Of a stretch of DNA of 64,000 nucleotides, positions 1-30,167 are shown piece by piece. Each line of letters starts with the position of its first letter. Position 1 is the first letter of the stretch. The stretch is taken from contig JBGQJK010000003.1 in the NCBI GenBank assembly GCA_041499035.1, positions 1,953 to 65,952 of the forward strand, read 5' to 3'. The notes below the pieces were generated by a model that ran no database searches, was not told the DNA's origin, and saw only the letters and a program-made list of their open reading frames with translations. The position numbers and the translations under genes were made by a program. The stretch is from Patescibacteria group bacterium (lineage in GTDB: Bacteria > Patescibacteriota > Microgenomatia > UBA8517).

Positions 1-1563
1 TTTTTCATCGTCCCAGGAATGGGGTTTGGGAATGATGTAGGATTGGGTTCTAAGCCAATTACTTTCGCCGAAGGTTAATGTTTTGCTGTAATCAACTGAA
101 ATGCCGGGAGTAATTCTGTGAAGAAATAAATATTTACCGCCGAAAGTTTCCGGAAAGATGCAGGCGTCTTTGTCGTAGATGCCCGGGGCCGTGATCAGAA
201 TTGGCTTCTCCCAATCCCAATTCCGCTTTAGAAAGTTTTCAACACTAATTGATGTTAATGCGACTCTTGTTAAGTCGCCGCCCGCGTAGGCGGTGTAGCA
301 AATATAAAGTTTATCGCCTATTTGTGTGATTCTCGGGTCTTCGCAACCCCTGGACTCGAAGTCTTCTCTCGGGGAATAAATCGGGTCTGGGAGTCTCTCT
401 TCTATACTTACCCCGTCGGTACTTACCGCCAAACCAAATCTTGAAATGTCGTCTCCGGACTGGGCTCTATAAATGATATAGATCTTTCCTTCCAAACTGA
501 TAGCTGCGGGATTAAAAACCGCTTTTGATTCCCAAGAATGTTCAGGGATAGCTTTTAAGATCGGATTTTCCTTGAATTTTTCGAATTTTACGGGCGCAAC
601 ATTGTTAATTTGCATGCTGCTAAAAAGTTCTTTGACGGGAACTTCCGCGAGGCAAACCGAGGTGTCGCATGCGCTGTAGTAAATAGACAAGCTTTCCTTT
701 TCTATAATCGCCCCGTTTGCAAAAATTGTGTTTGGAACGTTGCCTTTTATTTCGTAATCTGTTTCGGGGACTAGGAGCGGTTTTTTAATTTCACCGACGA
801 TTTTTTTAGGATCTTTAAGATCAAGGAGAACACCCTTTATTTGAACCTGCCGCTGATCCGTAAAATAATTTTCTATATAACAATAAATAAGTAGCCAGCC
901 ATACTCCGTCTTAATTGGAGTTGCTCCGACCTCTACCTGGTCAAGGCTGCTCCAGGTAAGAGGCAGAGTCTGTTCGTCCAGCGATTTATACCATTTGTTC
1001 CAGAATTTTTCCGACCATAAGTCTTCCTTTTTATCAAAATAGGCAACGGCGATTTTTGACGGGGGAAGATCTGTGTTGGCCGTAAAAAGTACCGCGTATT
1101 TGCCGTTTATTTTTTCGGGGAAGAGGGTCATCGCTTTCGCATTGAACGGGGTTATTAAGTGTTTTTCTTTCACAGTGCTTAGATCATCCGAAATAGCCAA
1201 ACCGACTTTTATTCCGGGGGCAGAAAAGGGGAAGGTGGATAGAGCCGTATAAAAGATAAAGTACTCATTATCGAGCATTGTAACCCTTGGGTCTTCGCAA
1301 CCGAACGTGTCCCAGTCTTCGGAAGGAGTTATCAGTAACTTGCGGTTGTCGAAATCTATTCCGTCAGCGCTTTCCGCAGTCGCTATCACCGAAAGTTCGA
1401 GCTCTGCCCCTGAGACAAATTGCTTACTCGACATGGCTCGGTAAAGCATTCTGTATTTGTCATTTGTTTTTATGACTGAGCCGTTAAATGCAGCGTAGCT
1501 TTCCCAGGGATTTTTATTTAGCGGCAGAAGGATTGGATTTTTGGGGTATCTGGTTATATTCAT
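1..1563 (-). CDS. GH130/DUF377-like glycosidase or phosphorylase with two tandem beta-propeller modules. The N-terminus is at 1563 and the C-terminus runs off the window edge.
   Basis: Manual translation of the minus strand from the ATG at 1563-1561 (MNITRYPKNPILLPLNKNPWESYAAFNGSVIKTNDKYRMLYRA...) gives an open frame down to position 1. It is a paralogue of the next ORF and has GH130-like motifs (FNPAAI, GCEDPRIT, LYICYTAY). It is absent from the ORF track because no stop codon lies in the window. Confidence 0.65.
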   Translation of the reverse strand, partial: MNITRYPKNPILLPLNKNPWESYAAFNGSVIKTNDKYRMLYRAMSSKQFVSGAELELSVIATAESADGIDFDNRKLLITPSEDWDTFGCEDPRVTMLDNEYFIFYTALSTFPFSAPGIKVGLAISDDLSTVKEKHLITPFNAKAMTLFPEKINGKYAVLFTANTDLPPSKIAVAYFDKKEDLWSEKFWNKWYKSLDEQTLPLTWSSLDQVEVGATPIKTEYGWLLIYCYIENYFTDQRQVQIKGVLLDLKDPKKIVGEIKKPLLVPETDYEIKGNVPNTIFANGAIIEKESLSIYYSACDTSVCLAEVPVKELFSSMQINNVAPVKFEKFKENPILKAIPEHSWESKAVFNPAAISLEGKIYIIYRAQSGDDISRFGLAVSTDGVSIEERLPDPIYSPREDFESRGCEDPRITQIGDKLYICYTAYAGGDLTRVALTSISVENFLKRNWDWEKPILITAPGIYDKDACIFPETFGGKYLFLHRITPGISVDYSKTLTFGESNWLRTQSYIIPKPHSWDDEK

Positions 1564-1574
1564 AATCTTAGGCT

Positions 1575-3395
1575 TTAGTCTACTTCCGGTAGTTTGATAG
1601 GATGAAGAGTCCCACCCTCATCATTTGTCAGCTGCCTAAGAAACTCTTTCAGATTTGCTGATGCAACACAAGTAACACTGTCGCTTCCGCCGTAGTAAAC
1701 TAAGAGCTGCCCATCCACTATTACTGCGCCGCAGGGGTAGACTACACCGAACTTTGCCAATCCATTTTCATAGTGTTCCGTAGGTTCGATTATGGGGTGA
1801 TTGCTTCTGTGAAGAATTTTGGTCGGGTCATTTAGGTCCAGTAGCATTGCGCCGACTTTATACTTTGATGAATCTGCCTCGCCAACACCCTGATAAATTA
1901 AAAGCCAGCCCTCGTCGGTTTTTATAGGAGGCGCGCCGGTTCCGATTTTACGGCTGTCCCACATATTTGGTCTGGGTTTAATTGCAAACTCGCCTTTTAA
2001 CCAGCTCTTGCCGTCGAATTCCAGATTATCCACAAAGTCTATGAGAATGTTCGGATAAATTCTATGGAAGATTACGTATTTACCGTTAATCTTTTCCGGG
2101 AGAAGACATCCGCTTTTGTCTATTATCCCCGGTGGGGAAATAAGAACGGGCCTGCTCCAGAGAAAATTGCGGTTAAGGAAGTTTTCTAAAAGTATTGAAG
2201 TCATGGCGAGCCTGGGTGGTTCCCAACCGTTAAAAGCCACATAAATCATATAAAGTCTGTCGCCAATTTTTGTAATCCTGGGATCCTCGCAGCCGCCATA
2301 GCCGCCACCCGACATGTATTTTTTGGCAGTTTCGTATGAAGCCTGTTTGCCTTTGACTTCAAAAGGCTCGCTGGCTGCGTATATCGGCTCTTTAAGCCTG
2401 CCGCCGAAGTTTATGCCGTCACAGCTTTCCGCATACCCGAGAACCGAAATGTAGTCCCTGCCTACCGCGCGGTAAATCAGGTAGACTTTGCCATCTTCAT
2501 AAAATGCGGCAGGATTAAAAGCGGCTTCGTTTTCCCAGGCATTTTCCGCGCGTGGCACCAGAACGGGGTTTGCCGGATGTTTGTCGAGTTTATAATGATG
2601 ATTTTCGTGTGCAGGTTCGGACTCAAAAACCGGGTAGGTGATTAAAAATATCCCCACGTCCGAAATGTTCCAATAGCCCAAAAGTTTGCCTTCAAAATAG
2701 ACGCAGCCAAGACAAGTTACCTCGTGGTCTTTCCACTCACCGGGCTCTTGCCAGAGCGAAGTTTTGGTCTGCCAGAGGATTTTGTCGGGACTATTTATGT
2801 CGAAGCACATTGCTTTGGAGTCGAGTGAACTAGTATGGTAAATAACAAAAATGCCCTGGGAGGTTTTGATAACGAAATCAATATAATAATTCTTATCTTC
2901 CGGGAGATCCACTTTCTGAAACTTCCAGCTCTCTCCGTCTTTTGACACCCCAAAAGAAATACTCTTTCCTCCCGTGTACATGACATAATTGCCCTTATGT
3001 TTATAGTCGCTGACTATTACTCCGCCAGAAATACCCTCAGGATTTTTTGTGAAAGTATCCCAGTTTGACAAGCTTAGCGAGGACGCAAAAAATGATCCGC
3101 TTTGTTTTGCATCTACTAATTGGTAGTCCAATAGAAGATTGCCGTTAAACCTGCTTATCTTTAGACCGGAGAGTTTGCCGGGGTCAACCCTTTTTTTATC
3201 GCCGTCCCGGATTGTAAAAACAGATTCGCTCCGTTCGAACTCAAAACCGTCTTTGCTTTCGGCAACACAAACAGCATTGGGAGTATTCGAAGAATAGTAA
3301 TAGAGTGAAATCTTATCGCCGTGCGAATTTACACCCAAACCGCGGATTCTGGCATCTTTAATTGCACCTTTAGGTGGAATTTTTATTTTAGTCAT
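1575..3395 (-). CDS. GH130/DUF377-like protein with two tandem modules (beta-mannoside phosphorylase/glycosidase family)
   Basis: The 616-aa ORF has FNPAAFYEDGKVYLIYRA, GCEDPRITKIGDRLYMIYVA and GAMLLDLNDP motifs, repeated in two halves. The track start at 3425 is a GTG; the first ATG (MTKIKIPP) at 3395 is the more likely start. Confidence 0.7.
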   Translation of the reverse strand: MTKIKIPPKGAIKDARIRGLGVNSHGDKISLYYYSSNTPNAVCVAESKDGFEFERSESVFTIRDGDKKRVDPGKLSGLKISRFNGNLLLDYQLVDAKQSGSFFASSLSLSNWDTFTKNPEGISGGVIVSDYKHKGNYVMYTGGKSISFGVSKDGESWKFQKVDLPEDKNYYIDFVIKTSQGIFVIYHTSSLDSKAMCFDINSPDKILWQTKTSLWQEPGEWKDHEVTCLGCVYFEGKLLGYWNISDVGIFLITYPVFESEPAHENHHYKLDKHPANPVLVPRAENAWENEAAFNPAAFYEDGKVYLIYRAVGRDYISVLGYAESCDGINFGGRLKEPIYAASEPFEVKGKQASYETAKKYMSGGGYGGCEDPRITKIGDRLYMIYVAFNGWEPPRLAMTSILLENFLNRNFLWSRPVLISPPGIIDKSGCLLPEKINGKYVIFHRIYPNILIDFVDNLEFDGKSWLKGEFAIKPRPNMWDSRKIGTGAPPIKTDEGWLLIYQGVGEADSSKYKVGAMLLDLNDPTKILHRSNHPIIEPTEHYENGLAKFGVVYPCGAVIVDGQLLVYYGGSDSVTCVASANLKEFLRQLTNDEGGTLHPIKLPEVD

Positions 3396-3590: not shown

Positions 3591-4598
3591 ATGGGATTAT
3601 CTGTTGGAATTGTAGGGTTACCTAATGTTGGCAAGAGTACACTTTTTAATGCTTTACTAAAAAAACAGCAGGCATATGTTGCCAATTTTCCTTTTGCCAC
3701 AATTGAGCCCAACATTGGCGTTGTTCCCGTTCCGGATGAGCGTCTCTCAAAACTGGCTGAGGTAACCAAAAAAGCCGAGAATATGGGCAATCTTCCTCCT
3801 GAAGTTCCTGCTACCGTAGAGTTTGTTGATATTGCAGGGCTTATCGCAGGAGCGTCTAAAGGTGAAGGTCTCGGCAACAAATTCCTTAGTCATATTAGGG
3901 AAACCGATGCGATTTGTTTTGTCCTCCGTGCATTTTCCGATCCGGACATCATTAAACAGGGGGTAACCGACCCTAAAACCGATTTCGAGGTTTTAAAGGT
4001 TGAGCTTGACTTGGCGGATGAAGAAATGGTGGCCCGGTCCTCCGCAAAGGCTTCGGCTGGCAAGCAATCATCTGAGGATAATTTACCGCTTTTCTCAAAA
4101 AAACCCTTTCTGATTGTTCTCAACGTTGATGAGAAAGATTTGGAAGACTCTTCTGCCCTCGAGAGCAAATATGCTGGTGAGCTAAAGGTTAATAAAGACC
4201 AGGTAATAATAGTTTCCGCGAAAACGGAAAGTGAACTCTCGGAACTTTCTGCGGAGGACCAAAAAGCATATCTTTCCGACCTTGGCATAACGAAATCAGG
4301 ATTGGAAAGATTGATTCAAAAAGCTTTTGCCACACTCGGTCTTATCACCTTCCTAACGGCAGGGGAGAAGGAAGTACGGGCCTGGACGATCAAGAAAGGA
4401 CTAAATGCTCAGGAAGCTGCGGGGGTAATTCACACAGACTTCATCAAAAAGTTCATCAAGGCTGATGTTGTAGACTTCAACGATTTCATCTCAAACGGTG
4501 GCTGGAAAGCCTGCCGCGAACTCGGAAAAGTCAGAAGTGAAGGCCGTGACTACATTATGCAGGACGGCGACGTAGTTGAGTTTAAGATTGGCGCCTAA
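3591..4598 (+). CDS. ychF: Ribosome-binding ATPase YchF (Obg-like GTPase with C-terminal TGS domain)
   Basis: N-terminal P-loop [37 protein letters not shown], and a TGS-like end [10 protein letters not shown]. Confidence 0.9.
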
Positions 4599-4625
4599 AC
4601 CCCTCCTGGAGTAAAATACGCTTCT

Positions 4626-5141
4626 ATGGAAAGAATTCCGCGGAATACTATCGGCAGAGGCAATGAAAATACTGCAAAGGCTGGTTGGACAGGGGTAGTT
4701 TTAAAAGAAACAAACTTTTTAAGCATGATGTCACTAGCTTTTTCGGGTGGTGTCTCGGCCCTTCGGCGGGAGATAGCTTTTTGTGAGGGAGAAGCCCAAA
4801 GGTCGGAGATAAAGGTTCCAAGGAGAACACGCGTTGTCAAATTTCCGATTGGTTTTAAAATCGGACAAGACTATATTCCTGACGATGGATCTTTGACCCG
4901 GGAACAAATTGCCGAGAAAATTGAGCGTAGTGGAACCCAATTTATTAAGGAGGGCTATAAAATCAAACCGGAAAATTATCATGGTTTTGAACAGGAAGTT
5001 TACTTGGTTGATTTAACATTTGGTTACGCAAGGATATTGGGTAACTTCATAAGCATAGAGACCAAAAATCACTATAAACTCATGACCCTGAACGTGTTGC
5101 GCAGGGTGGGGGTTGCCCACTCCTTGAAGGGGGGAGCTTAG
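4626..5141 (+). CDS. Hypothetical protein; true start uncertain
   Basis: Only the long ORF supports it. The C-terminal half (KFPIGFKIGQDYIPDDGSLTREQIAEKIERSG...) looks protein-like. Confidence 0.3.
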   Translation: MERIPRNTIGRGNENTAKAGWTGVVLKETNFLSMMSLAFSGGVSALRREIAFCEGEAQRSEIKVPRRTRVVKFPIGFKIGQDYIPDDGSLTREQIAEKIERSGTQFIKEGYKIKPENYHGFEQEVYLVDLTFGYARILGNFISIETKNHYKLMTLNVLRRVGVAHSLKGGA

Positions 5142-7523: not shown

Positions 7524-8675
7524 ATGGCAATTAGAAAATTGGATATTAAAAAACTGCTAGTTTTGGTAGCGTTAGTGTTGGTTGTTTTGGCTTCGCTTGC
7601 CTCCGGCGCGATTGCCGACAGACTATTCGGTTTTAGGCCCTTGGATAGATTTTTCCCGCGTGGCATTTCAACCGTTACCGAACGTGTGGTTAATGAAAAT
7701 AGCGATGTGGTTGATGTAGTTAAAAAAGTAGGGCCTTCAGTTGTTACCGTGTCAGCTACAGCTCCTCAGCGACAAGTTATTCAATTTTCGCCGTTTGGTG
7801 GGTTTTCCCAGGGTGTCCAGGGTGGAACTGCTCAAGACATCGGGAGTGGTTTTATAGTTTCTGCGGACGGTCTTATCGTCACAAATAAACATGTGGTTTC
7901 CGACACAACTCTTACTTATAAAGTGGCCACGCCCGACGGCAAAAGCTATGATGTTAAATCTATCAATAAAGACCCGAATAACGATATCGCCGTAATTAAA
8001 ATTGACGCAAAAGGACTTAAGCCGGTTGAACTTGGAGATTCGGCAAATCTTCAGGTCGGGCAGTTTGTAATTGCAATCGGAACCGCTTTGGGGGAATTTA
8101 GAAATACGGTTACGACTGGGGTTGTTTCGGGACTCGGGCGTGGAATAAATGCAGGAGGAGATTTTACGGGCTATGTTGAAAGATTGGATAATGTTATTCA
8201 AACCGATGCCGCCATTAATCCGGGCAACTCCGGCGGGCCGCTTCTTAACTCCAGTGGACAAGTGATTGGCATTAATGTTGCAGTAGCCCAAGGGGCGAAT
8301 AATGTTGCATTCTCTATTCCTATAAATACCGTTAAAGACGCGCTTAATTCATTTAATCAAAACAACGGCAAGTTTCCGGCAAAAGCTTTTCTTGGGGTGG
8401 AGTACCAAATGCTTAGCAAGCAGGTTGCTCTTTTGAATCAGGTTCCCCAGGGCGCGTATGTGGTTAATGTCGTGGCCGGGTCTCCCGCAGAAAAAGCAGG
8501 GATACAACAAGGGGACATTATTTTCAAAGCCGACGGCAATTCAATTTCAACCGACAGCGGAGGTCTGGGTAAAATTGTCGCAGGTAAAAAAGTGGGGGAC
8601 TCTATCAAACTTACAATCTGGCGCGATGGATCCCAAAAGGACATCTCTGTGACCCTCACAGCCGCGGGACAATGA
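7524..8675 (+). CDS. HtrA/DegP-family trypsin-like serine protease with C-terminal PDZ
   Basis: GSGFIVSADGLIVTNKHVV, the GNSGGPL active-site motif, and a C-terminal PDZ (GSPAEKAGIQQGDII). Confidence 0.85.
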   Translation: MAIRKLDIKKLLVLVALVLVVLASLASGAIADRLFGFRPLDRFFPRGISTVTERVVNENSDVVDVVKKVGPSVVTVSATAPQRQVIQFSPFGGFSQGVQGGTAQDIGSGFIVSADGLIVTNKHVVSDTTLTYKVATPDGKSYDVKSINKDPNNDIAVIKIDAKGLKPVELGDSANLQVGQFVIAIGTALGEFRNTVTTGVVSGLGRGINAGGDFTGYVERLDNVIQTDAAINPGNSGGPLLNSSGQVIGINVAVAQGANNVAFSIPINTVKDALNSFNQNNGKFPAKAFLGVEYQMLSKQVALLNQVPQGAYVVNVVAGSPAEKAGIQQGDIIFKADGNSISTDSGGLGKIVAGKKVGDSIKLTIWRDGSQKDISVTLTAAGQ

Positions 8676-16876: not shown

Positions 16877-16881
16877 GTGAG

Positions 16882-16966
16882 TGCCGAGGAGAGGAGTCGA
16901 ACCTCCACGGAGTGTTACCTCCACAGGTTTTTGAGACCTGAGCGTCTGCCATTCCGCCACCTCGGC
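16882..16966 (-). tRNA. tRNA-Leu, anticodon CAA (type II, long variable arm); CCA not encoded
   Basis: Manual fold of the reverse complement GCCGAGG-UG-GCGGAAUGGCAGACGC-U-CAGGU-CUCAAAA-ACCUG-UGGAGGUAACACUCCGU-GGAGGUUCGACUCCUCU-CCUCGGC-A. It has a 7-bp acceptor stem, a 5-bp anticodon stem, a 7-nt loop with CAA at positions 34-36, a 17-nt variable arm, and a UUCGACU T-loop. Confidence 0.85.
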
Positions 16967-27288: not shown

Positions 27289-28059
27289 ATGTCTAAACGC
27301 CGGCGTTTTGTAATAGCTTCAAGTATTTTAGCTCTAGGATTCGTTGCAGTGCAGTTTTTAACAGACCAGAACCGTTTTTGGGCAATTGCAGTTTTGGGAC
27401 TTATGACGATAATTCTGTTTTTCTGGTCTCTTTTTGAGGGATTGGGTAAGAATATGACCCTTTTAACATTGGTTCTTCCTACAATTTTTACGCTCGGGGT
27501 AGGAACCTTCTGGTTCCTTCTCCCCGCCAATATTTTTGCCCGGATCCCGATTGTTATATTTTATGGAATAGGTATCTACGTACTCTGCCTGACAATGAAT
27601 ATTTTTAGCGTTTCGGCAATTCGTACTATTGCACTCTTACGGGCAGCCAGGGGAGTGGGGTTTGTACTCAGTCTTGTTACATCGTTCCTTGTATTCGATG
27701 CTATTCTATCCCTCAGAAGTTCTTTGTATTATTTATTACCTCTGGTTTTTGTTATTTCATTTCCGCTTTTTATGCAGGGTTTTTGGTCGGTTGTACTTGA
27801 GAAGGAATTTTCAAAGGACATTTTGGTTCTGTCAGCTGTTTCGACTCTTGTTATGGCGGAGACCGCCGCGGTACTTTTCTTCTGGCCCGTAACGGTGGTC
27901 GTTGGCTCGCTTTTCCTGACTGTAACTTTTTACATTCTTATGGGCCTGGGCCAAAGTAAGCTTGAGGGTAGGCTGTTTCTGGCTACCGTCAGGGAACACC
28001 TGGTGGTGGGGGCGCTGGTTCTTATTTCAATGTTTTTTGCAACCCATTGGGGCCAATGA
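27289..28059 (+). CDS. Hypothetical polytopic membrane protein
   Basis: 256 aa, about 7 TM segments. Confidence 0.55.
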   Translation: MSKRRRFVIASSILALGFVAVQFLTDQNRFWAIAVLGLMTIILFFWSLFEGLGKNMTLLTLVLPTIFTLGVGTFWFLLPANIFARIPIVIFYGIGIYVLCLTMNIFSVSAIRTIALLRAARGVGFVLSLVTSFLVFDAILSLRSSLYYLLPLVFVISFPLFMQGFWSVVLEKEFSKDILVLSAVSTLVMAETAAVLFFWPVTVVVGSLFLTVTFYILMGLGQSKLEGRLFLATVREHLVVGALVLISMFFATHWGQ

Positions 28060-28099
28060 GAAATAAGCAAATAAGCGAATAAGCAAATCTCCAAATAAA

Positions 28100-28725
28100 A
28101 GCACACAAAAGCCGGGGGGAACAGGGGAGGGGGAGAAAGTACCCTATAATTATAGGATAAATAGTGTGTTCAGCTTATAGTTTTCACGATAATTATAGGT
28201 TGTTTTCACGAAAAGCGACACATCATACCGGTCGAAGAAAAACCGAAGCCTGTTGTCACGGAGAACTGATGTACATTGATACAGTTGTTGGCCTCAAGAC
28301 CTTACTTTCTCAGCTTCGGGGCATGCTATGTGTGGATAAGTAATTGAGAGACAGGAGCAGCCCCTTGCCACTTTAGGAAGAAGTTATACCACACACCATT
28401 TAGGGAGAAGCGCATAGGCAGCTTGTTGGTTACATAAGTGCGTCACTATTCTCCCGGAGGGCTTAGGACATCCTTATTAGTGGCACGCCCCACAGGGAAG
28501 CTGATTATACTATGTCGTACAATAATACTTTTGCGACGTATACTAAAACAGGCTGAGAGTAGAGCGTATTTATGTACGTTTCCGCGCATTCATATATCCG
28601 TATGCACTTTTATTGTTATCCGTTCGTAATACTATCCTCCCACCGCGTTTCCTTAGTATTGTTCTTTCCGAATATAAGCCGAAGAATATTTTTGGTTCTT
28701 GCTCCCCCTCCCCCGGTTTTTAGCT
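28100..28725 (+). ncRNA. Candidate large structured RNA in the ORF-free 28060-29213 region, closed by a long-range G-run/C-run helix followed by a U-tract. Hypothesis only; the strand is inferred from the U-tract.
   Basis: No ORF of 60 aa or more apart from two low-complexity ones. gccggggggaacaggggagggggag (28111-28136) is complementary to ctccccctcccccgg (28702-28716), which is followed by ttttt. The nested internal helices are listed in findings. Confidence 0.25.
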
Positions 28726-29149
28726 GTTTATCCTTTTTTATGTAAAATGCGGTTATTCCCATGTTTTCGGCCAAACTAAGACGATCAGTTAGTCGCCTTT
28801 TGAATTACATAGGCCTTAAAATCGATTTGGTGAGGTCGTATTTAGCCTCGATTATGATTTAGAGATTTAGATCACTAAAATAGTAGTTATTGTACTTACG
28901 AGGTGTAAAATCTTGACACGGTAGAAGAAAAATTTCACTATTTAGACTTTTTTAGAGCGATTGACCATTCGAATAATAATAACGAGTTGAGTAAATTTGC
29001 GAAAGACCATGATATGCGAATATCAATGAAGCCGGTTTCGCATGGACGAAGAAGAGGTATAAGACTGGGAGGCAAAAGAGTTTTACCTGAAGAGTGCTGG
29101 ATAAATAATGATAACGAGCTGGCAAGGTGGTATAAGGAGAGACTAAAAA

Positions 29150-29175
29150 AATGACATTTGTCGCACAATGTCATT
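29150..29175. promoter_or_regulatory. dif-like recombination-site candidate: perfect 9-bp inverted arms AATGACATT / AATGTCATT around the 8-bp centre tgtcgcac, directly upstream of the xerD-like gene
   Basis: aatgacatt-tgtcgcac-aatgtcatt, which is also 10-6-10 with one arm mismatch. It overlaps the −35 of the xerD-like promoter. Confidence 0.35.
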
Positions 29176-29201
29176 GACAACTCTCCACATTTTGGTATAA
29201 G
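29174..29201 (+). promoter_or_regulatory. Promoter of the xerD-like gene: TTGACA, 16-nt spacer, TGgTATAAG
   Basis: ttgacaactctccacattttggtataag, then 12 nt to the ATG at 29214. Confidence 0.5.
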
Positions 29202-29213
29202 ATCTTCTTAGTA

Positions 29214-30167
29214 ATGGCTGAGTCTGCTCATAACCAGTCTGAAATAGGAAGAAAAGTAAAAGACTTTCTGGAATATCTTCAAGTTGAGCGAGGCTCCTCT
29301 CCCCTAACGATCAGGAACTACAAACATTATCTAACGCGGTTTATGTTATGGATGGAAAGTCAAGGCATCCGCGAAGATTTACGCGACATTAATCAGGATA
29401 TGGTCCGTAGTTTCCGTGTTTATTTATCCAACTTGCCCGGGGAAAATAAGGCAACGCTGGCACGCCGGACCCAGGGTTATCACGTTATTGCCCTTCGGTC
29501 ATTTCTAAAATGGTTGATACGGAATGATTTTAGTGTTATGGCACCTGACAAAATCGATTTGCCGAAAGTGGAAGAAAGACAAGTCAAGTTTCTTTCCGGA
29601 GAAGAAGTGGACAGAATGCTTAATGCACCGTCCCTTGACTCAATTCAGGGAAAACGCGATAAAGCAATCTTGGAGGTGCTTTTTTCAACGGGACTCCGTG
29701 TTTCGGAACTTACCCGGCTCGACAGGGATAAAGTTAATTTGGATACCAAAGAGTTTGGCATTATCGGCAAGGGGGGCAAGGCCCGTGTGGTTTTCCTTTC
29801 GGGAAGGGCAACCGACTGGCTTATAAAATATTTAAATGAAAGGGTTGATCACTTTAAACCTTTATTCATTCATCATAAGGGCAAGTCCGACCCCACTACC
29901 CCGGATGAGCATATGCGCCTTACTCCCCGCTCGGTTCAAAGGATGATAAAAAAATATTCGCATAAAATGAAGATGCCGATGGAAGTTACCCCGCACGTTA
30001 TGCGCCATAGTTTTGCTACGGACCTTCTAAATGCCGGAGCGGATATCAGAAGCGTGCAGGAAATGCTGGGACACAAAAACATCTCAACTACCCAAATTTA
30101 TACCCATGTAACCAATAAGCAGCTTCGTGATGTTCATGCAGCTTTCCATGGGAAAGGGGGAAGTTAG
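29214..30167 (+). CDS. xerD: Tyrosine site-specific recombinase, XerD/XerC-like
   Basis: ERGSSPLTIRNYKHYLTRF, LFSTGLRVSELTRLD, GKGGKARVV, and HVMRHSFATDLLNAGADIRSVQEMLGHKNISTTQIYTHV (the catalytic R, H-x-x-R and Y). Confidence 0.85.
   Translation: MAESAHNQSEIGRKVKDFLEYLQVERGSSPLTIRNYKHYLTRFMLWMESQGIREDLRDINQDMVRSFRVYLSNLPGENKATLARRTQGYHVIALRSFLKWLIRNDFSVMAPDKIDLPKVEERQVKFLSGEEVDRMLNAPSLDSIQGKRDKAILEVLFSTGLRVSELTRLDRDKVNLDTKEFGIIGKGGKARVVFLSGRATDWLIKYLNERVDHFKPLFIHHKGKSDPTTPDEHMRLTPRSVQRMIKKYSHKMKMPMEVTPHVMRHSFATDLLNAGADIRSVQEMLGHKNISTTQIYTHVTNKQLRDVHAAFHGKGGS

What the first reader, a model, noticed from the sequence alone, without database searches (positions are those of the whole stretch)
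28060..29213. 1.15 kb ORF-free region with nested long-range complementary segments; candidate large structured RNA next to an xerD-like gene
Every other part of this window is tightly packed with genes. Yet 28060-29213 has no credible ORF: two low-complexity ORFs of 63 and 80 aa only. Its composition is mixed rather than AT-rich spacer.

Seen in sequence:
- A purine run gccggggggaacaggggagggggag (28111-28136) is complementary over 13-15 nt to ctccccctcccccgg (28702-28716). That segment is immediately followed by ttttt. Together they look like a closing helix plus U-tail around a ~560-nt domain.
- Inside it, several nested helices are mutually compatible.
- tcagcttc (28310-28317) pairs with gaagctga (28497-28504).
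- ggggc-a-tgct...agca-gcccc forms a hairpin at 28318-28364.
- tgccact (28366-28372) pairs with agtggca (28478-28484).
- cgagg-tcgtatttag-cctcg forms a hairpin near 28833-28851.

The 5' edge carries a perfect 14-bp palindrome cctataattatagg (28143-28156), a half-copy gataattatagg (28188-28199), a duplicated ttttcacg, and three tandem 8-mers aataagcN right after the upstream stop codon.

The region matches none of the RNA families I can recognise by eye (RNase P P4, tmRNA termini, T-box, group II domain V). Its location immediately upstream of the only site-specific recombinase in the window makes it a candidate novel large ncRNA, a mobile-element relic, or a recombination/terminus-associated region.
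Basis: seen in the sequence. Interest (0 to 1): 0.7.

Follow-up and report, generated by a model that had tools for sequence, protein, structure and literature searches.

The report
Chromosome terminus dif site, not RNA
The gene-free 1.15 kb is most likely not a large RNA gene but the replication-terminus region of a Woesebacteria (candidate phyla radiation) chromosome, holding an unusual 24-bp recombination site for the neighbouring Xer recombinase, which would unlink chromosome dimers before cell division.

Summary
The described features are all in the sequence, but the large structured RNA reading fails every test. There is no Rfam match here or in 17 homologous loci. RNAalifold finds no consensus structure in the conserved blocks. 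The "closing helix" shows no covariation, and the nested inner helices fold no better than shuffled sequence.

Instead, about 0.8 kb (28111-28850) is conserved at the DNA level and syntenic (YebC, DUF5656, element, variable gene, Xer) in 26 Woesebacteria/Microgenomates genomes.

The G-run and C-run are the innermost converging copies of the most strand-polarised oligomer family in the window (GGGGA / GGGGAG / GGGNAGGG). Its polarity flips between 28130 and 28702. The same flip occurs in 23 relatives and in 120 metagenome contigs.

At the flip lies a single-copy 9-6-9 imperfect palindrome, GTCGTACAA-TAATAC-TTTTGCGAC (28514-28537). Its left half-site recurs next to the -35 box of the xer promoter (29160-29169) in every relative.

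Best reading: a non-canonical dif site with KOPS-like flanks, forming a dif-xer module. Eleven phage contigs carry the same site without polarity.

The other conserved motif arrays, which have helical-repeat spacing, and an invariant TTATCCACA remain unexplained. They may be accessory or terminus-organising protein sites. This is a new variant of a known kind.

The parts
27289..28059 (+). DUF5656 membrane-protein gene, the conserved left neighbour of the element
   Evidence: Pfam PF18900. The order YebC, DUF5656, element, Xer holds in 26 genomes and in class A metagenome loci.
28062..28085 (+). Three tandem AATAAGCN 8-mers directly after the stop codon. Function unknown.
   Evidence: Similar AT-rich 8-mer runs occur at variable places in relatives.
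28111..28135 (+). G-run holding GGGGAGGG (28124-28131). It is the innermost left copy of the polarised KOPS-like motif and points towards the dif site.
   Evidence: Conserved as AGGGGAGGAGGG in relatives. Last + strand GGGGAG before the polarity flip.
28143..28156 (.). 14-bp perfect palindrome CCTATAATTATAGG. Conserved. Split by a 12-22 nt insertion in three relatives. Function unknown.
28181..28219 (+). Two direct copies of TTTTCACGA, 22 bp apart (28181 and 28203), with ATTATAGG between them and GCGAC after them. Candidate protein-binding array.
   Evidence: The spacing is 22 bp in 20 of 23 genomes where both copies lie in the element. Alignment. No consensus RNA structure.
28233..28247 (+). 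CGAA-N6-CCGAA direct repeat (pair 1)
   Evidence: Conserved block.
28267..28286 (+). Tandem 10-mers TGATGTACAT and TGATACAGTT (consensus TGTATAGTT-TGATATAGTT)
   Evidence: TGATATAGTT is near-invariant. The period is 10 bp.
28331..28339 (-). TTATCCACA, a perfect DnaA-box nonamer (TGTGGATAA on the + strand). Near-invariant in relatives but solitary. Unexplained.
   Evidence: Identical in 26 of 27 aligned sequences. It is the only box with 0-1 mismatch in the region. Not enriched near the site in other lineages.
28340..28513 (.). Not alignable between genomes. Length clusters near 150 or 200 nt.
   Evidence: Fold z-scores at chance. In L012 this spacer holds a LAGLIDADG gene.
28514..28537 (.). 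Candidate dif site: GTCGTACAA-TAATAC-TTTTGCGAC. Two 9-bp inverted arms around a 6-bp centre.
   Evidence: Conserved in 22 relatives. Lies at the polarity change point 28130-28702. One exact match per locus in each of 120 metagenome loci that show the same polarity flip. No canonical dif in the window.
28555..28566 (+). GAGAGTAGAGCG, a conserved G-rich element about 20-30 nt right of the site (GGGGAAGTGG-like in more distant relatives)
   Evidence: GGGG peak at +20..+39 from the centre of the site.
28668..28683 (+). CCGAA-N6-CCGAA direct repeat (pair 2), at a fixed distance from the dif site
   Evidence: The distance from dif is 148-159 bp in 21 genomes (153-159 in 20 of them), although the DNA between is not conserved.
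28702..28721 (-). C-run plus T5, which is GGGGAGGG on the - strand (28706-28713). It is the innermost right copy of the polarised motif and points towards dif.
   Evidence: First - strand copy after the flip. Conserved about 192-197 bp from dif. No covariation with the G-run.
28758..28801 (.). Two small inverted repeats: CCCATGTTTTCGG, and AGACGA..TCGCC followed by TTTT
   Evidence: Partly conserved. RNAalifold predicts no consensus pairs.
28814..28849 (+). Conserved CCTTAAAATCGATTTGGTGAGGTC, followed by a variable hairpin (GAGGTCGTATTTAGCCTC). Right edge of the conserved element.
28987..29154 (+). 55-aa ORF, probably the remnant of the variable gene that sits between the element and xer in relatives
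   Evidence: 43% identity over 42 aa to the 205-aa ORF at L028:5650-6267, E = 5e-9.
29151..29203 (+). xer promoter. dif left half-site GTCGCACAAT (29160-29169) lies inside the palindrome ATGACATT-N8-AATGTCAT and abuts the -35 box TTGACA (29174-79). The -10 box TAAGAT is at 29198-203.
   Evidence: Promoter scan. The half-site is present upstream of xer in the 22 relatives shown plus L003. It is present in 14 of 27 class A loci. Only two GTCGYACAAT occur in 64 kb, against 0.21 expected.
29214..30167 (+). Tyrosine recombinase gene of the Xer family (317 aa)
   Evidence: Pfam Phage_integrase plus SAM-like domain. In NCBIfam only the XerA_Arch model passes its cutoff. Best solved relative is E. coli XerD, 1a0p, E = 1e-43. 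The catalytic motifs LRVSE, GKGGK, HVMRH, LGH and IYTH are present.

Best explanation
The region is the replication-terminus locus of a Woesebacteria (Patescibacteria/CPR) chromosome, organised around a non-canonical dif site.

Shown:
- The window's most strand-polarised oligomers (GGGGA, GGGGAG, GGGNAGGG) switch strand between 28130 and 28702.
- The conserved G-run (28111-35) and C-run (28702-21) are the innermost converging copies of that motif.
- Between them lies a single-copy, conserved 9-6-9 imperfect palindrome (28514-37).
- That palindrome sits 0.03-5.5 kb upstream of a xer gene in this lineage.
- Its left arm recurs at the -35 box of the xer promoter.

Inferred:
- The Xer recombinase, which is XerD/XerA-like and has its catalytic residues intact, binds the two arms.
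- It exchanges strands across the 6-bp centre and so resolves chromosome dimers.
- The GGGGAGG-type motifs act like KOPS and direct an FtsK-type translocase towards the site.
- Xer also binds the promoter half-site and autoregulates.

More speculative: the further conserved arrays have fixed 10-, 11-, 22- and about 155-bp spacings. These are TTTTCACGA x2, CGAA-N6-CCGAA x2, TGATATAGTT x2, a solitary TTATCCACA, and AAAATCGATTT. They may be binding sites for accessory or terminus-organising proteins, comparable in role to the accessory sequences of cer/psi.

Phage contigs carrying the same site probably exploit the host Xer, for integration or for multimer resolution.
For: Conservation and synteny
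- Nucleotide-level conservation of blocks of the 0.8-kb element across genomes whose flanking protein is only 59-82% identical.
- Conserved gene order.

Terminus
- Cumulative GC skew peaks at 30-37 kb.
- GGGNAGGG: 7 on the + strand, all at or left of 29801, and 7 on the - strand, all at or right of 28706.
- GGGGAG: left +21/-2, right +4/-18.
- An unbiased k-mer scan ranks this family first, with p from 3e-11 to 7e-7.
- The maximum-likelihood change point is 28130-28702 for GGGGAG and 28129-28703 for GGGGGA.
- 23 relatives: GGGGAG left +107/-8, right +5/-63.
- 120 metagenome contigs: GGGGA left 248/44 and right 66/198 in class A (p = 1e-48); left 345/86 and right 61/248 in class B (p = 1e-62).

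Site
- 9-6-9 architecture, single copy, conserved.
- No canonical dif elsewhere in the window.

Link to Xer
- xer lies downstream in the 21 Woesebacteria genomes whose locus reaches it, and in 27 class A loci.
- The half-site GTCGCACA(A/T)T abuts the -35 box in all relatives.
- L005 and L009 carry an extra recombinase gene. At the same position they have a different 12-6-12 palindrome.
- The recombinase's catalytic residues are intact.

Known systems
- Known single-recombinase dif-xer modules and KOPS behaviour match this layout (review PMC5357621).
Against: - No experiment exists. Binding and recombination by Xer are inferred.
- The site does not match the canonical dif consensus.
- Whole-genome position relative to oriC could not be checked. 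In the complete genome CP055308.1 the locus lies at 749-758 kb of 803 kb. If that record starts at dnaA, this would be far from 180 degrees. The start point of the record is unknown.
- Bulk GC skew is weak and partly follows gene orientation.
- FtsK was not looked for.
- About 700 bp of additional conserved motifs, including an invariant DnaA-box nonamer, are not explained by a simple dif model.
- In L005 and L009 the xer orthologue keeps the GTCGCACAAT promoter half-site although the main site differs.
Confidence: 0.8

Rival explanations
1. A large structured non-coding RNA of about 600 nt, closed by the G-run/C-run helix and ended by the U-tract.
For: - Gene-free but conserved.
- The MFE fold pairs the two runs.
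- Fold z-scores are -1.9 and -2.9.
- A T5 tract follows the C-run.
- A LAGLIDADG gene is inserted in a variable segment in L012, as happens in loops of structured RNAs.
Against: - No Rfam hit in the window or in 17 homologous loci.
- RNAalifold finds 0 pairs in blocks I and III. In block II it finds only the palindrome.
- The closing helix is no better paired than in shuffles.
- The variable spacer has z near 0 in 24 species.
- Wobble and mismatch types show no strand preference.
- The repeats are direct and at helical-repeat spacing.
- The G-run and C-run belong to a window-wide polarised motif family.
Confidence: 0.04
2. The 24-bp palindrome is a Xer or integrase operator, or an attB used by phages, or a replication-fork barrier that happens to sit at the terminus. 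In this reading it is not the chromosome-dimer resolution site.
For: - A half-site sits in the xer promoter, which fits a regulatory role.
- Eleven phage contigs carry the same site.
- In L029 the site lies 460 nt from an integrase gene, next to a GH6 gene.
- It does not match canonical dif.
Against: - The site coincides with the polarity flip in contigs that lack any adjacent xer or phage genes (class B).
- There is one copy per contig.
- The 6-bp centre between inverted arms is the architecture of a recombination core site.
- No other dif candidate is present.
Confidence: 0.1
3. A replication origin or DnaA-controlled region, because of the invariant TTATCCACA and the iteron-like direct repeats.
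For: - A perfect DnaA-box nonamer is near-invariant in relatives.
- Direct repeats sit at 10- and 22-bp spacing.
- Phage contig L035 has two TTATCCACA boxes beside the palindrome, near a primase-helicase gene.
Against: - There is only one box and no cluster.
- The G-rich motif and genes converge on the locus, which is the terminus pattern, rather than diverging from it.
- No dnaA or dnaN is among the genes scanned in the window.
- The box is not enriched near the site in other lineages.
Confidence: 0.02
4. A relic of a mobile element (MITE, IS or IMEX) bounded by the G-run and C-run as terminal inverted repeats.
For: - 13-15 bp inverted repeats bound a segment of about 590 bp next to a recombinase gene.
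- Mobile genes are inserted in some relatives: LAGLIDADG in L012 and an extra integrase in L005 and L009.
Against: - There are no other copies in the window, and no hits in the phage or plasmid collections.
- The position and orientation are the same in 26 genomes and in class A metagenome loci.
- The 'TIRs' are copies of a polarised motif that is dispersed across the window.
Confidence: 0.03

Closest known systems
XerS/difSL module of streptococci and lactococci
   Same: - A single tyrosine recombinase gene is genetically linked to its own atypical dif site at the terminus. In distant class A relatives the site lies only 31-600 nt upstream of xer (review PMC5357621).
- The site is an imperfect inverted repeat with A/T tracts facing the centre.
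- The polarised motifs differ from E. coli KOPS in those organisms too.
   Different: - The arm sequences are unrelated: TTTCCGAAAA and TTTTCTTGAAA with an 11-bp centre, against GTCGCACAA and TTTTGCGAC with a 6-bp centre.
- The recombinase is not XerS. It scores 135 bits on the NCBIfam XerS model, whose cutoff is 267.
- In Woesebacteria a variable gene separates the site from xer, and a half-site stays at the promoter.
Archaeal XerA/dif
   Same: - The recombinase passes only the NCBIfam XerA_Arch cutoff, 227 against 220.
- It aligns with solved XerA structures 4a8e and 5hxy.
- One recombinase acts on a fairly symmetric site with a 6-bp centre.
- Some archaea have a xerA/dif module, and short polarised sequences invert at dif.
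   Different: - Archaeal dif is 11-6-11. From my own knowledge, not tested here, it resembles bacterial dif in sequence. This site fails the canonical consensus.
- The closest solved relative is bacterial XerD, 1a0p.
- XerA acts without FtsK. Here a G-rich KOPS-like polarity, GGGNAGGG itself, suggests a translocase.
Classical XerCD/dif with FtsK and KOPS (E. coli, Vibrio)
   Same: - GGGNAGGG-type octamers lie on the leading strand and converge on the site.
- The site sits at the skew inversion.
- Mobile elements carry look-alike sites, as IMEX elements do.
   Different: - Only one xer gene is at the locus.
- The site sequence does not fit the 28-bp consensus.
- A further 0.7 kb of flanking DNA is conserved. 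I know of no description of this for classical dif (own knowledge, not checked here).
Plasmid resolution sites cer and psi (core site plus accessory sequences)
   Same: - A core Xer site is flanked by a few hundred bp of conserved non-coding DNA with phased protein-binding-like repeats. The distance from dif to the CCGAA pair is 153-159 bp, and the repeats are spaced at 22 and 10 bp.
- For cer, accessory proteins are known to bind such flanking DNA. That they enforce resolution selectivity is from my own knowledge.
   Different: - This locus is chromosomal and lies at the terminus.
- The accessory role is purely inferred. No ArgR, PepA or ArcA sites were identified.
- The conserved motifs lie on both sides of the core.

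Membership tests
dif / Xer chromosome-dimer resolution site | Two partly symmetric arms of about 9-11 bp around a 6-8 bp central region | tested here: met
   GTCGTACAA-TAATAC-TTTTGCGAC. The arms match at 8 of 9 positions in the consensus. Conserved in 22 relatives.
dif / Xer chromosome-dimer resolution site | Located at the replication terminus, where strand-compositional and KOPS-like polarity inverts | tested here: met
   The change point is 28130-28702. The flip is reproduced in 23 genomes and 120 metagenome contigs. Position relative to oriC was not testable.
dif / Xer chromosome-dimer resolution site | One copy per chromosome | tested here: inconclusive
   One copy in the 64-kb window and one exact match in each of 120 fetched loci. 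No whole genome could be scanned.
dif / Xer chromosome-dimer resolution site | Matches the canonical 28-bp dif consensus (DBBBCSBATAATRTAYATTATGTHAANT) | tested here: not met
   No match with 5 or fewer mismatches in the region. The best window hit is unrelated. The site is therefore a variant, like difSL or difH, and not classical dif.
dif / Xer chromosome-dimer resolution site | Bound and recombined by the cognate Xer recombinase | not testable with these tools
   Indirect evidence only: the linked xer gene, the half-site at the xer promoter in all relatives, and intact catalytic residues.
KOPS / architecture-imparting sequences read by FtsK | G-rich oligomer strongly skewed to the leading strand, with the skew inverting at dif | tested here: met
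   GGGGA, GGGGAG and GGGNAGGG.
KOPS / architecture-imparting sequences read by FtsK | An FtsK with a gamma domain that recognises the motif | not tested
   No FtsK turned up among the 30 window ORFs scanned. The rest of the genome is not available.
XerS (NCBIfam NF003462) / XerC (TIGR02224) / XerD (TIGR02225) equivalogs | Score above the curated cutoff of the model | tested here: not met
   XerD 258 against 330, XerC 258 against 335, XerS 135 against 267.
XerA-type recombinase (NCBIfam NF040815) | Score above the curated cutoff | tested here: met
   227 bits against a cutoff of 220. The organism is nevertheless bacterial, and the best solved match is XerD.
Known large or structured RNAs (GOLLD, ROOL, OLE, HEARO, raiA, RNase P, tmRNA, group I/II introns; Rfam 15) | Covariance-model match | tested here: not met
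   The window yields nothing except tRNA-Leu at gathering score. Only noise appears at E<=10. There are no matches in the gap of 17 homologous loci. ARAGORN finds no tmRNA.
Novel structured RNA (generic) | Conserved secondary structure supported by compensatory changes | tested here: not met
oriC | Cluster of DnaA boxes, with strand polarity diverging from the locus | tested here: not met
   One box only. The polarity converges on the locus.
IS / MITE | Several copies per genome at non-syntenic sites | tested here: not met
   No second copy in the window. The element is syntenic in 26 genomes.

The most novel reading that the evidence does not exclude
The 0.8-kb element may be more than a dif site. 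It could be a previously undescribed, lineage-wide terminus nucleoprotein platform. In this reading, phased arrays of protein sites flank the recombination core at fixed distances: TTTTCACGA x2 at 22 bp, CGAA-N6-CCGAA on both sides, tandem TGATATAGTT, and an invariant DnaA box. These arrays would act as chromosomal 'accessory sequences'. They might impose resolution selectivity, or they might couple termination, DnaA and dimer resolution. The same core site would be parasitised by CPR phages as the first IMEX-like elements of Patescibacteria.
Probability: 0.2. Interest if true: 0.75.

Novelty: new variant of a known kind. Interest (0 to 1): 0.5.

Why it matters
Chromosome biology of the candidate phyla radiation is almost unknown, because these bacteria are rarely cultured. 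No paper in the searched library mentions a dif site in Patescibacteria.

A defined dif sequence and a KOPS-like polar motif would be useful in several ways:
- They give a sequence-only marker for the replication terminus in CPR genomes and MAGs. This helps with checking assemblies, orienting replichores and interpreting coverage-based growth estimates.
- They define a testable recombinase/site pair.
- They flag phage or plasmid contigs that probably exploit the host Xer, which is a host-linking signal.

The result also removes a false lead. A conspicuous gene-free, conserved, self-complementary region need not be an RNA gene.

Tried and rejected
Searches and tests that gave nothing or argued against a reading:
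- Rfam at gathering score and at E<=10 on the window, and at gathering score on 17 loci: nothing relevant.
- blastn of the 1.15 kb against the phage and plasmid collections: no match.
- The contigs that encode the identical DUF5656 protein, of which two were fetched (L001, L002): no variation, so they were useless for covariation.
- DnaA-box cluster or oriC: a single box only. It is not enriched near the site in other lineages: 9 hits against about 4.6 expected by my rough count.
- Promoter or operator readings of CCTATAAT and of the palindrome: no consistent -35 box could be placed by eye (own reading), so these were left open.
- sigma-54 reading of the palindrome: rejected on spacing (own reasoning).
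- parS-like reading of GTTTTCACG: rejected because the sequence is not palindromic.
- Extra recombinase arms near the site in metagenome loci: not enriched, 0.21 per kb near against 0.14 per kb far.

Things that could not be done:
- Taxonomy of the class B contigs could not be established. The source names were truncated.
- Only contigs of about 1 Mb and the gene content (murG, a VirD4-like gene) hint at small-genome bacteria.
- The whole-genome position of the site relative to dnaA could not be determined with the tools.
Full report
**Observation.**
The region 28060-29213 lies between a DUF5656 membrane-protein gene (27289-28059) and a Xer-family tyrosine recombinase gene (29214-30167). It holds only short ORFs. 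Its GC content is 0.31-0.50. The window comes from a Woesebacteria/Microgenomates (Patescibacteria) genome.

**Homologous loci.**
A scan of one genome per species with an alignment of DUF5656 proteins returned 26 loci. The gene order YebC, DUF5656, gap, (variable gene), Xer is conserved. The first ~0.8 kb of the gap has no ORF of 100 aa or more, and no conserved one, in 25 of the 26; L012 holds an inserted LAGLIDADG gene. The flanking protein is only 59-82% identical. Even so, the gap DNA aligns at 70-95% identity in blocks matching window 28116-28350, 28490-28571 and 28750-28853. The element is therefore functional. It spans about 28111-28850.

One is a 55-aa remnant of the variable gene found in relatives. 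The other is the xer promoter.

**Test of the RNA reading.**
- Rfam 15 gives nothing in the window except a tRNA. At E<=10 it gives only noise. It gives nothing in the gaps of 17 homologous loci.
- RNAalifold on 23-24 homologues predicts 0 pairs for block I on the + strand. On the - strand it predicts four invariant pairs.
- It predicts 0 pairs for block III.
- In block II it predicts only the 24-bp palindrome. The one variable pair there is C-G 14, U.G 4, C.A 3, U-A 2, so there is no strand preference.
- The long-range G-run/C-run helix is paired in 74.8% of cells, against 76.5% when partners are shuffled among sequences. 468 of 500 shuffles are at least as high.
- The nested helices lie in a spacer that cannot be aligned. 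Its folding energy is at chance: z = -0.01 in the window, and mean z = -0.44 and -0.69 on the two strands.
- The conserved repeats are direct. They sit at 10, 11 and 22 bp, and some distances are fixed across non-conserved DNA.

I conclude that this is a DNA-level element, not a structured RNA.

**What the G-run and C-run are.**
In the window, GGGNAGGG occurs seven times on the + strand, all at or left of 29801. It occurs seven times on the - strand, all at or right of 28706. GGGGAG counts are +21/-2 to the left and +4/-18 to the right.

An unbiased scan of all 5- to 7-mers for a strand flip ranks GGGGA, GGGGG, GGGAG, GGGGGA, GGGGAG and AGGGGA first, with p down to 3e-11. The maximum-likelihood change point for GGGGAG is between 28130 and 28702, and for GGGGGA between 28129 and 28703. 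That interval is exactly between the two runs.

Bulk GC skew is weak and partly follows gene orientation. Cumulative skew peaks at 30-37 kb. Genes to the right are mostly on the - strand. The polarity converges on the locus, which is the pattern of a terminus and not of an origin. The same flip is seen in 23 relatives: GGGGAG left +107/-8, right +5/-63. This matches how KOPS behave around dif (review PMC5357621).

**The candidate dif.**
At the flip lies GTCGTACAA-TAATAC-TTTTGCGAC (28514-28537). It has two inverted 9-bp arms and a 6-bp centre, and it is conserved in 22 relatives. No canonical dif is present in the window.

- **Class A, 37 contigs.** These have DUF5656 upstream and/or xer downstream. 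In the 27 that hold xer, it starts 31 to about 5500 nt past the site, and in a few of them as little as 31-600 nt past it, so the two form a dif-xer module.
- **Class B, 83 contigs.** These have neither gene adjacent but are chromosomal. One example is an 830-kb contig where the site follows murG and genes converge on it.
- **Polarity.** GGGGA flips at the site in both classes (p = 1e-48 and 1e-62).

**Link to the recombinase.**
- The left arm GTCGCACA(A/T)T recurs directly upstream of the -35 box TTGACA of the xer promoter. This holds in the window (29160-29169) and in all relatives whose locus reaches the xer promoter (22 plus L003). It also holds in 14 of 27 class A contigs.
- The two copies are the only GTCGYACAAT in 64 kb, against 0.21 expected.
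- L005 and L009 carry an additional recombinase gene. At the same position they have a different palindrome, AACCGAGTATAA-TAACCC-TTACACTCGGTT.
- The recombinase keeps the catalytic R, K, H-R, H and Y motifs. It is closest to E. coli XerD among solved structures. In NCBIfam it passes only the XerA-type cutoff.

**Mobile elements.**
Eleven IMG/VR contigs carry the exact site in intergenic DNA. They share nothing else with the element, and some encode terminase or primase-helicase genes. They show no GGGGA polarity: 55/46 on the left and 17/13 on the right. They are probably phages or plasmids that use the host Xer. This last step is inference.

**Mechanism.**
Steps shown:
- the polarity inversion,
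- the site architecture,
- the linkage to xer,
- the promoter half-site.

Steps inferred:
- Xer binds both arms and exchanges strands across the 6-bp centre to resolve chromosome dimers.
- The GGGGAGG-type motifs orient an FtsK-like translocase.
- Xer autoregulates through the half-site.

**Unexplained.**
Several conserved motifs are not accounted for by a simple dif model:
- the 14-bp palindrome,
- TTTTCACGA x2,
- CGAA-N6-CCGAA on both sides of the site; the right-hand pair lies 148-159 bp from dif in all 21 genomes measured (153-159 in 20 of them),
- the tandem TGATATAGTT repeats,
- a solitary but near-invariant TTATCCACA,
- AAAATCGATTT.

Their phasing suggests accessory or terminus-organising protein sites. 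This is a hypothesis only.

**Novelty.**
dif/Xer systems, single-recombinase modules and KOPS are well known. The site sequence, its use across many small-genome uncultured bacteria, and the extended conserved architecture are not described in the searchable literature. I rate this a new variant of a known kind and of moderate interest. The ncRNA claim is rejected.

Noticed in passing
L012:5074-5571 (+): A LAGLIDADG homing-endonuclease gene (Pfam PF00961, E = 2e-18) is inserted inside the conserved non-coding element of one Microgenomates genome. It lies between the TGTGGATAA nonamer and the dif-like site. No recognisable intron or intein surrounds it.
   Followed up: partly
L005:5180-5290 and L009:5160-5260; recombinase genes L005:6333-7292 and L005:7787-8707: Two genomes replace the usual 24-bp site with a different palindrome, AACCGAGTATAA-TAACCC-TTACACTCGGTT. 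They carry two tandem tyrosine-recombinase genes. The xer orthologue still keeps the GTCGCACAAT half-site in its promoter. This may be a swap of the dif/Xer system.
   Followed up: partly
L035, about 8540-8600 (viral contig IMGVR_UViG_3300038566_000454): In a phage contig, two perfect TTATCCACA boxes 22 bp apart lie immediately beside the dif-like site, near a Toprim/AAA_25 primase-helicase gene. This could be a phage origin next to a Xer site.
   Followed up: no
L029:3338-3361, with integrase gene 3823-4755 (-) and GH6 gene 1188-2951 (-): In one 'viral' contig the site lies between an integrase gene and a glycoside hydrolase family 6 gene. This looks like a prophage-host junction.
   Followed up: no
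L109:4491-4514 (830-kb contig) and L098:6969-6992 (180-kb contig): In another, unidentified small-genome lineage, the same site sits just downstream of murG, with genes converging on it. The GGGGA polarity flip is the same, but no xer gene is adjacent.
   Followed up: partly
window 28987-29154 (+): A 55-aa ORF resembles the N-terminal part of a 205-aa ORF that occupies the dif-xer gap in L028 (43% identity over 42 aa). The slot between the element and xer holds different genes in different genomes, often NT5C/HAD-like genes. In this window the gene looks decayed.
   Followed up: partly
window-wide; for example 5629, 14806, 18798, 28062-28078, 30114, 50705, 55239, 62530, 62680, 63792: The heptamer AATAAGC occurs 12 times on the + strand and once on the - strand. 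It occurs on both sides of the terminus, so its bias does not flip the way GGGGA does. Unexplained.
   Followed up: no
relatives: dif to CCGAA pair 2 (window 28514 to 28668): The distance between the dif-like site and the right-hand CCGAA-N6-CCGAA pair is held at 148-159 bp in 21 genomes (153-159 in 20 of them). The roughly 100 nt between them are AT-rich and not conserved.
   Followed up: partly
L010:8402-8496 (-): A SAM riboswitch (RF00162, 57 bits) lies about 2 kb downstream of xer in one relative.
   Followed up: no
L039:3485-5467 (-): The large terminase gene of a phage contig carries intein/Hint domain matches.
   Followed up: no
window 16881-16966 (-): tRNA-Leu(CAA). It is the only RNA gene detected in the window.
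   Followed up: yes
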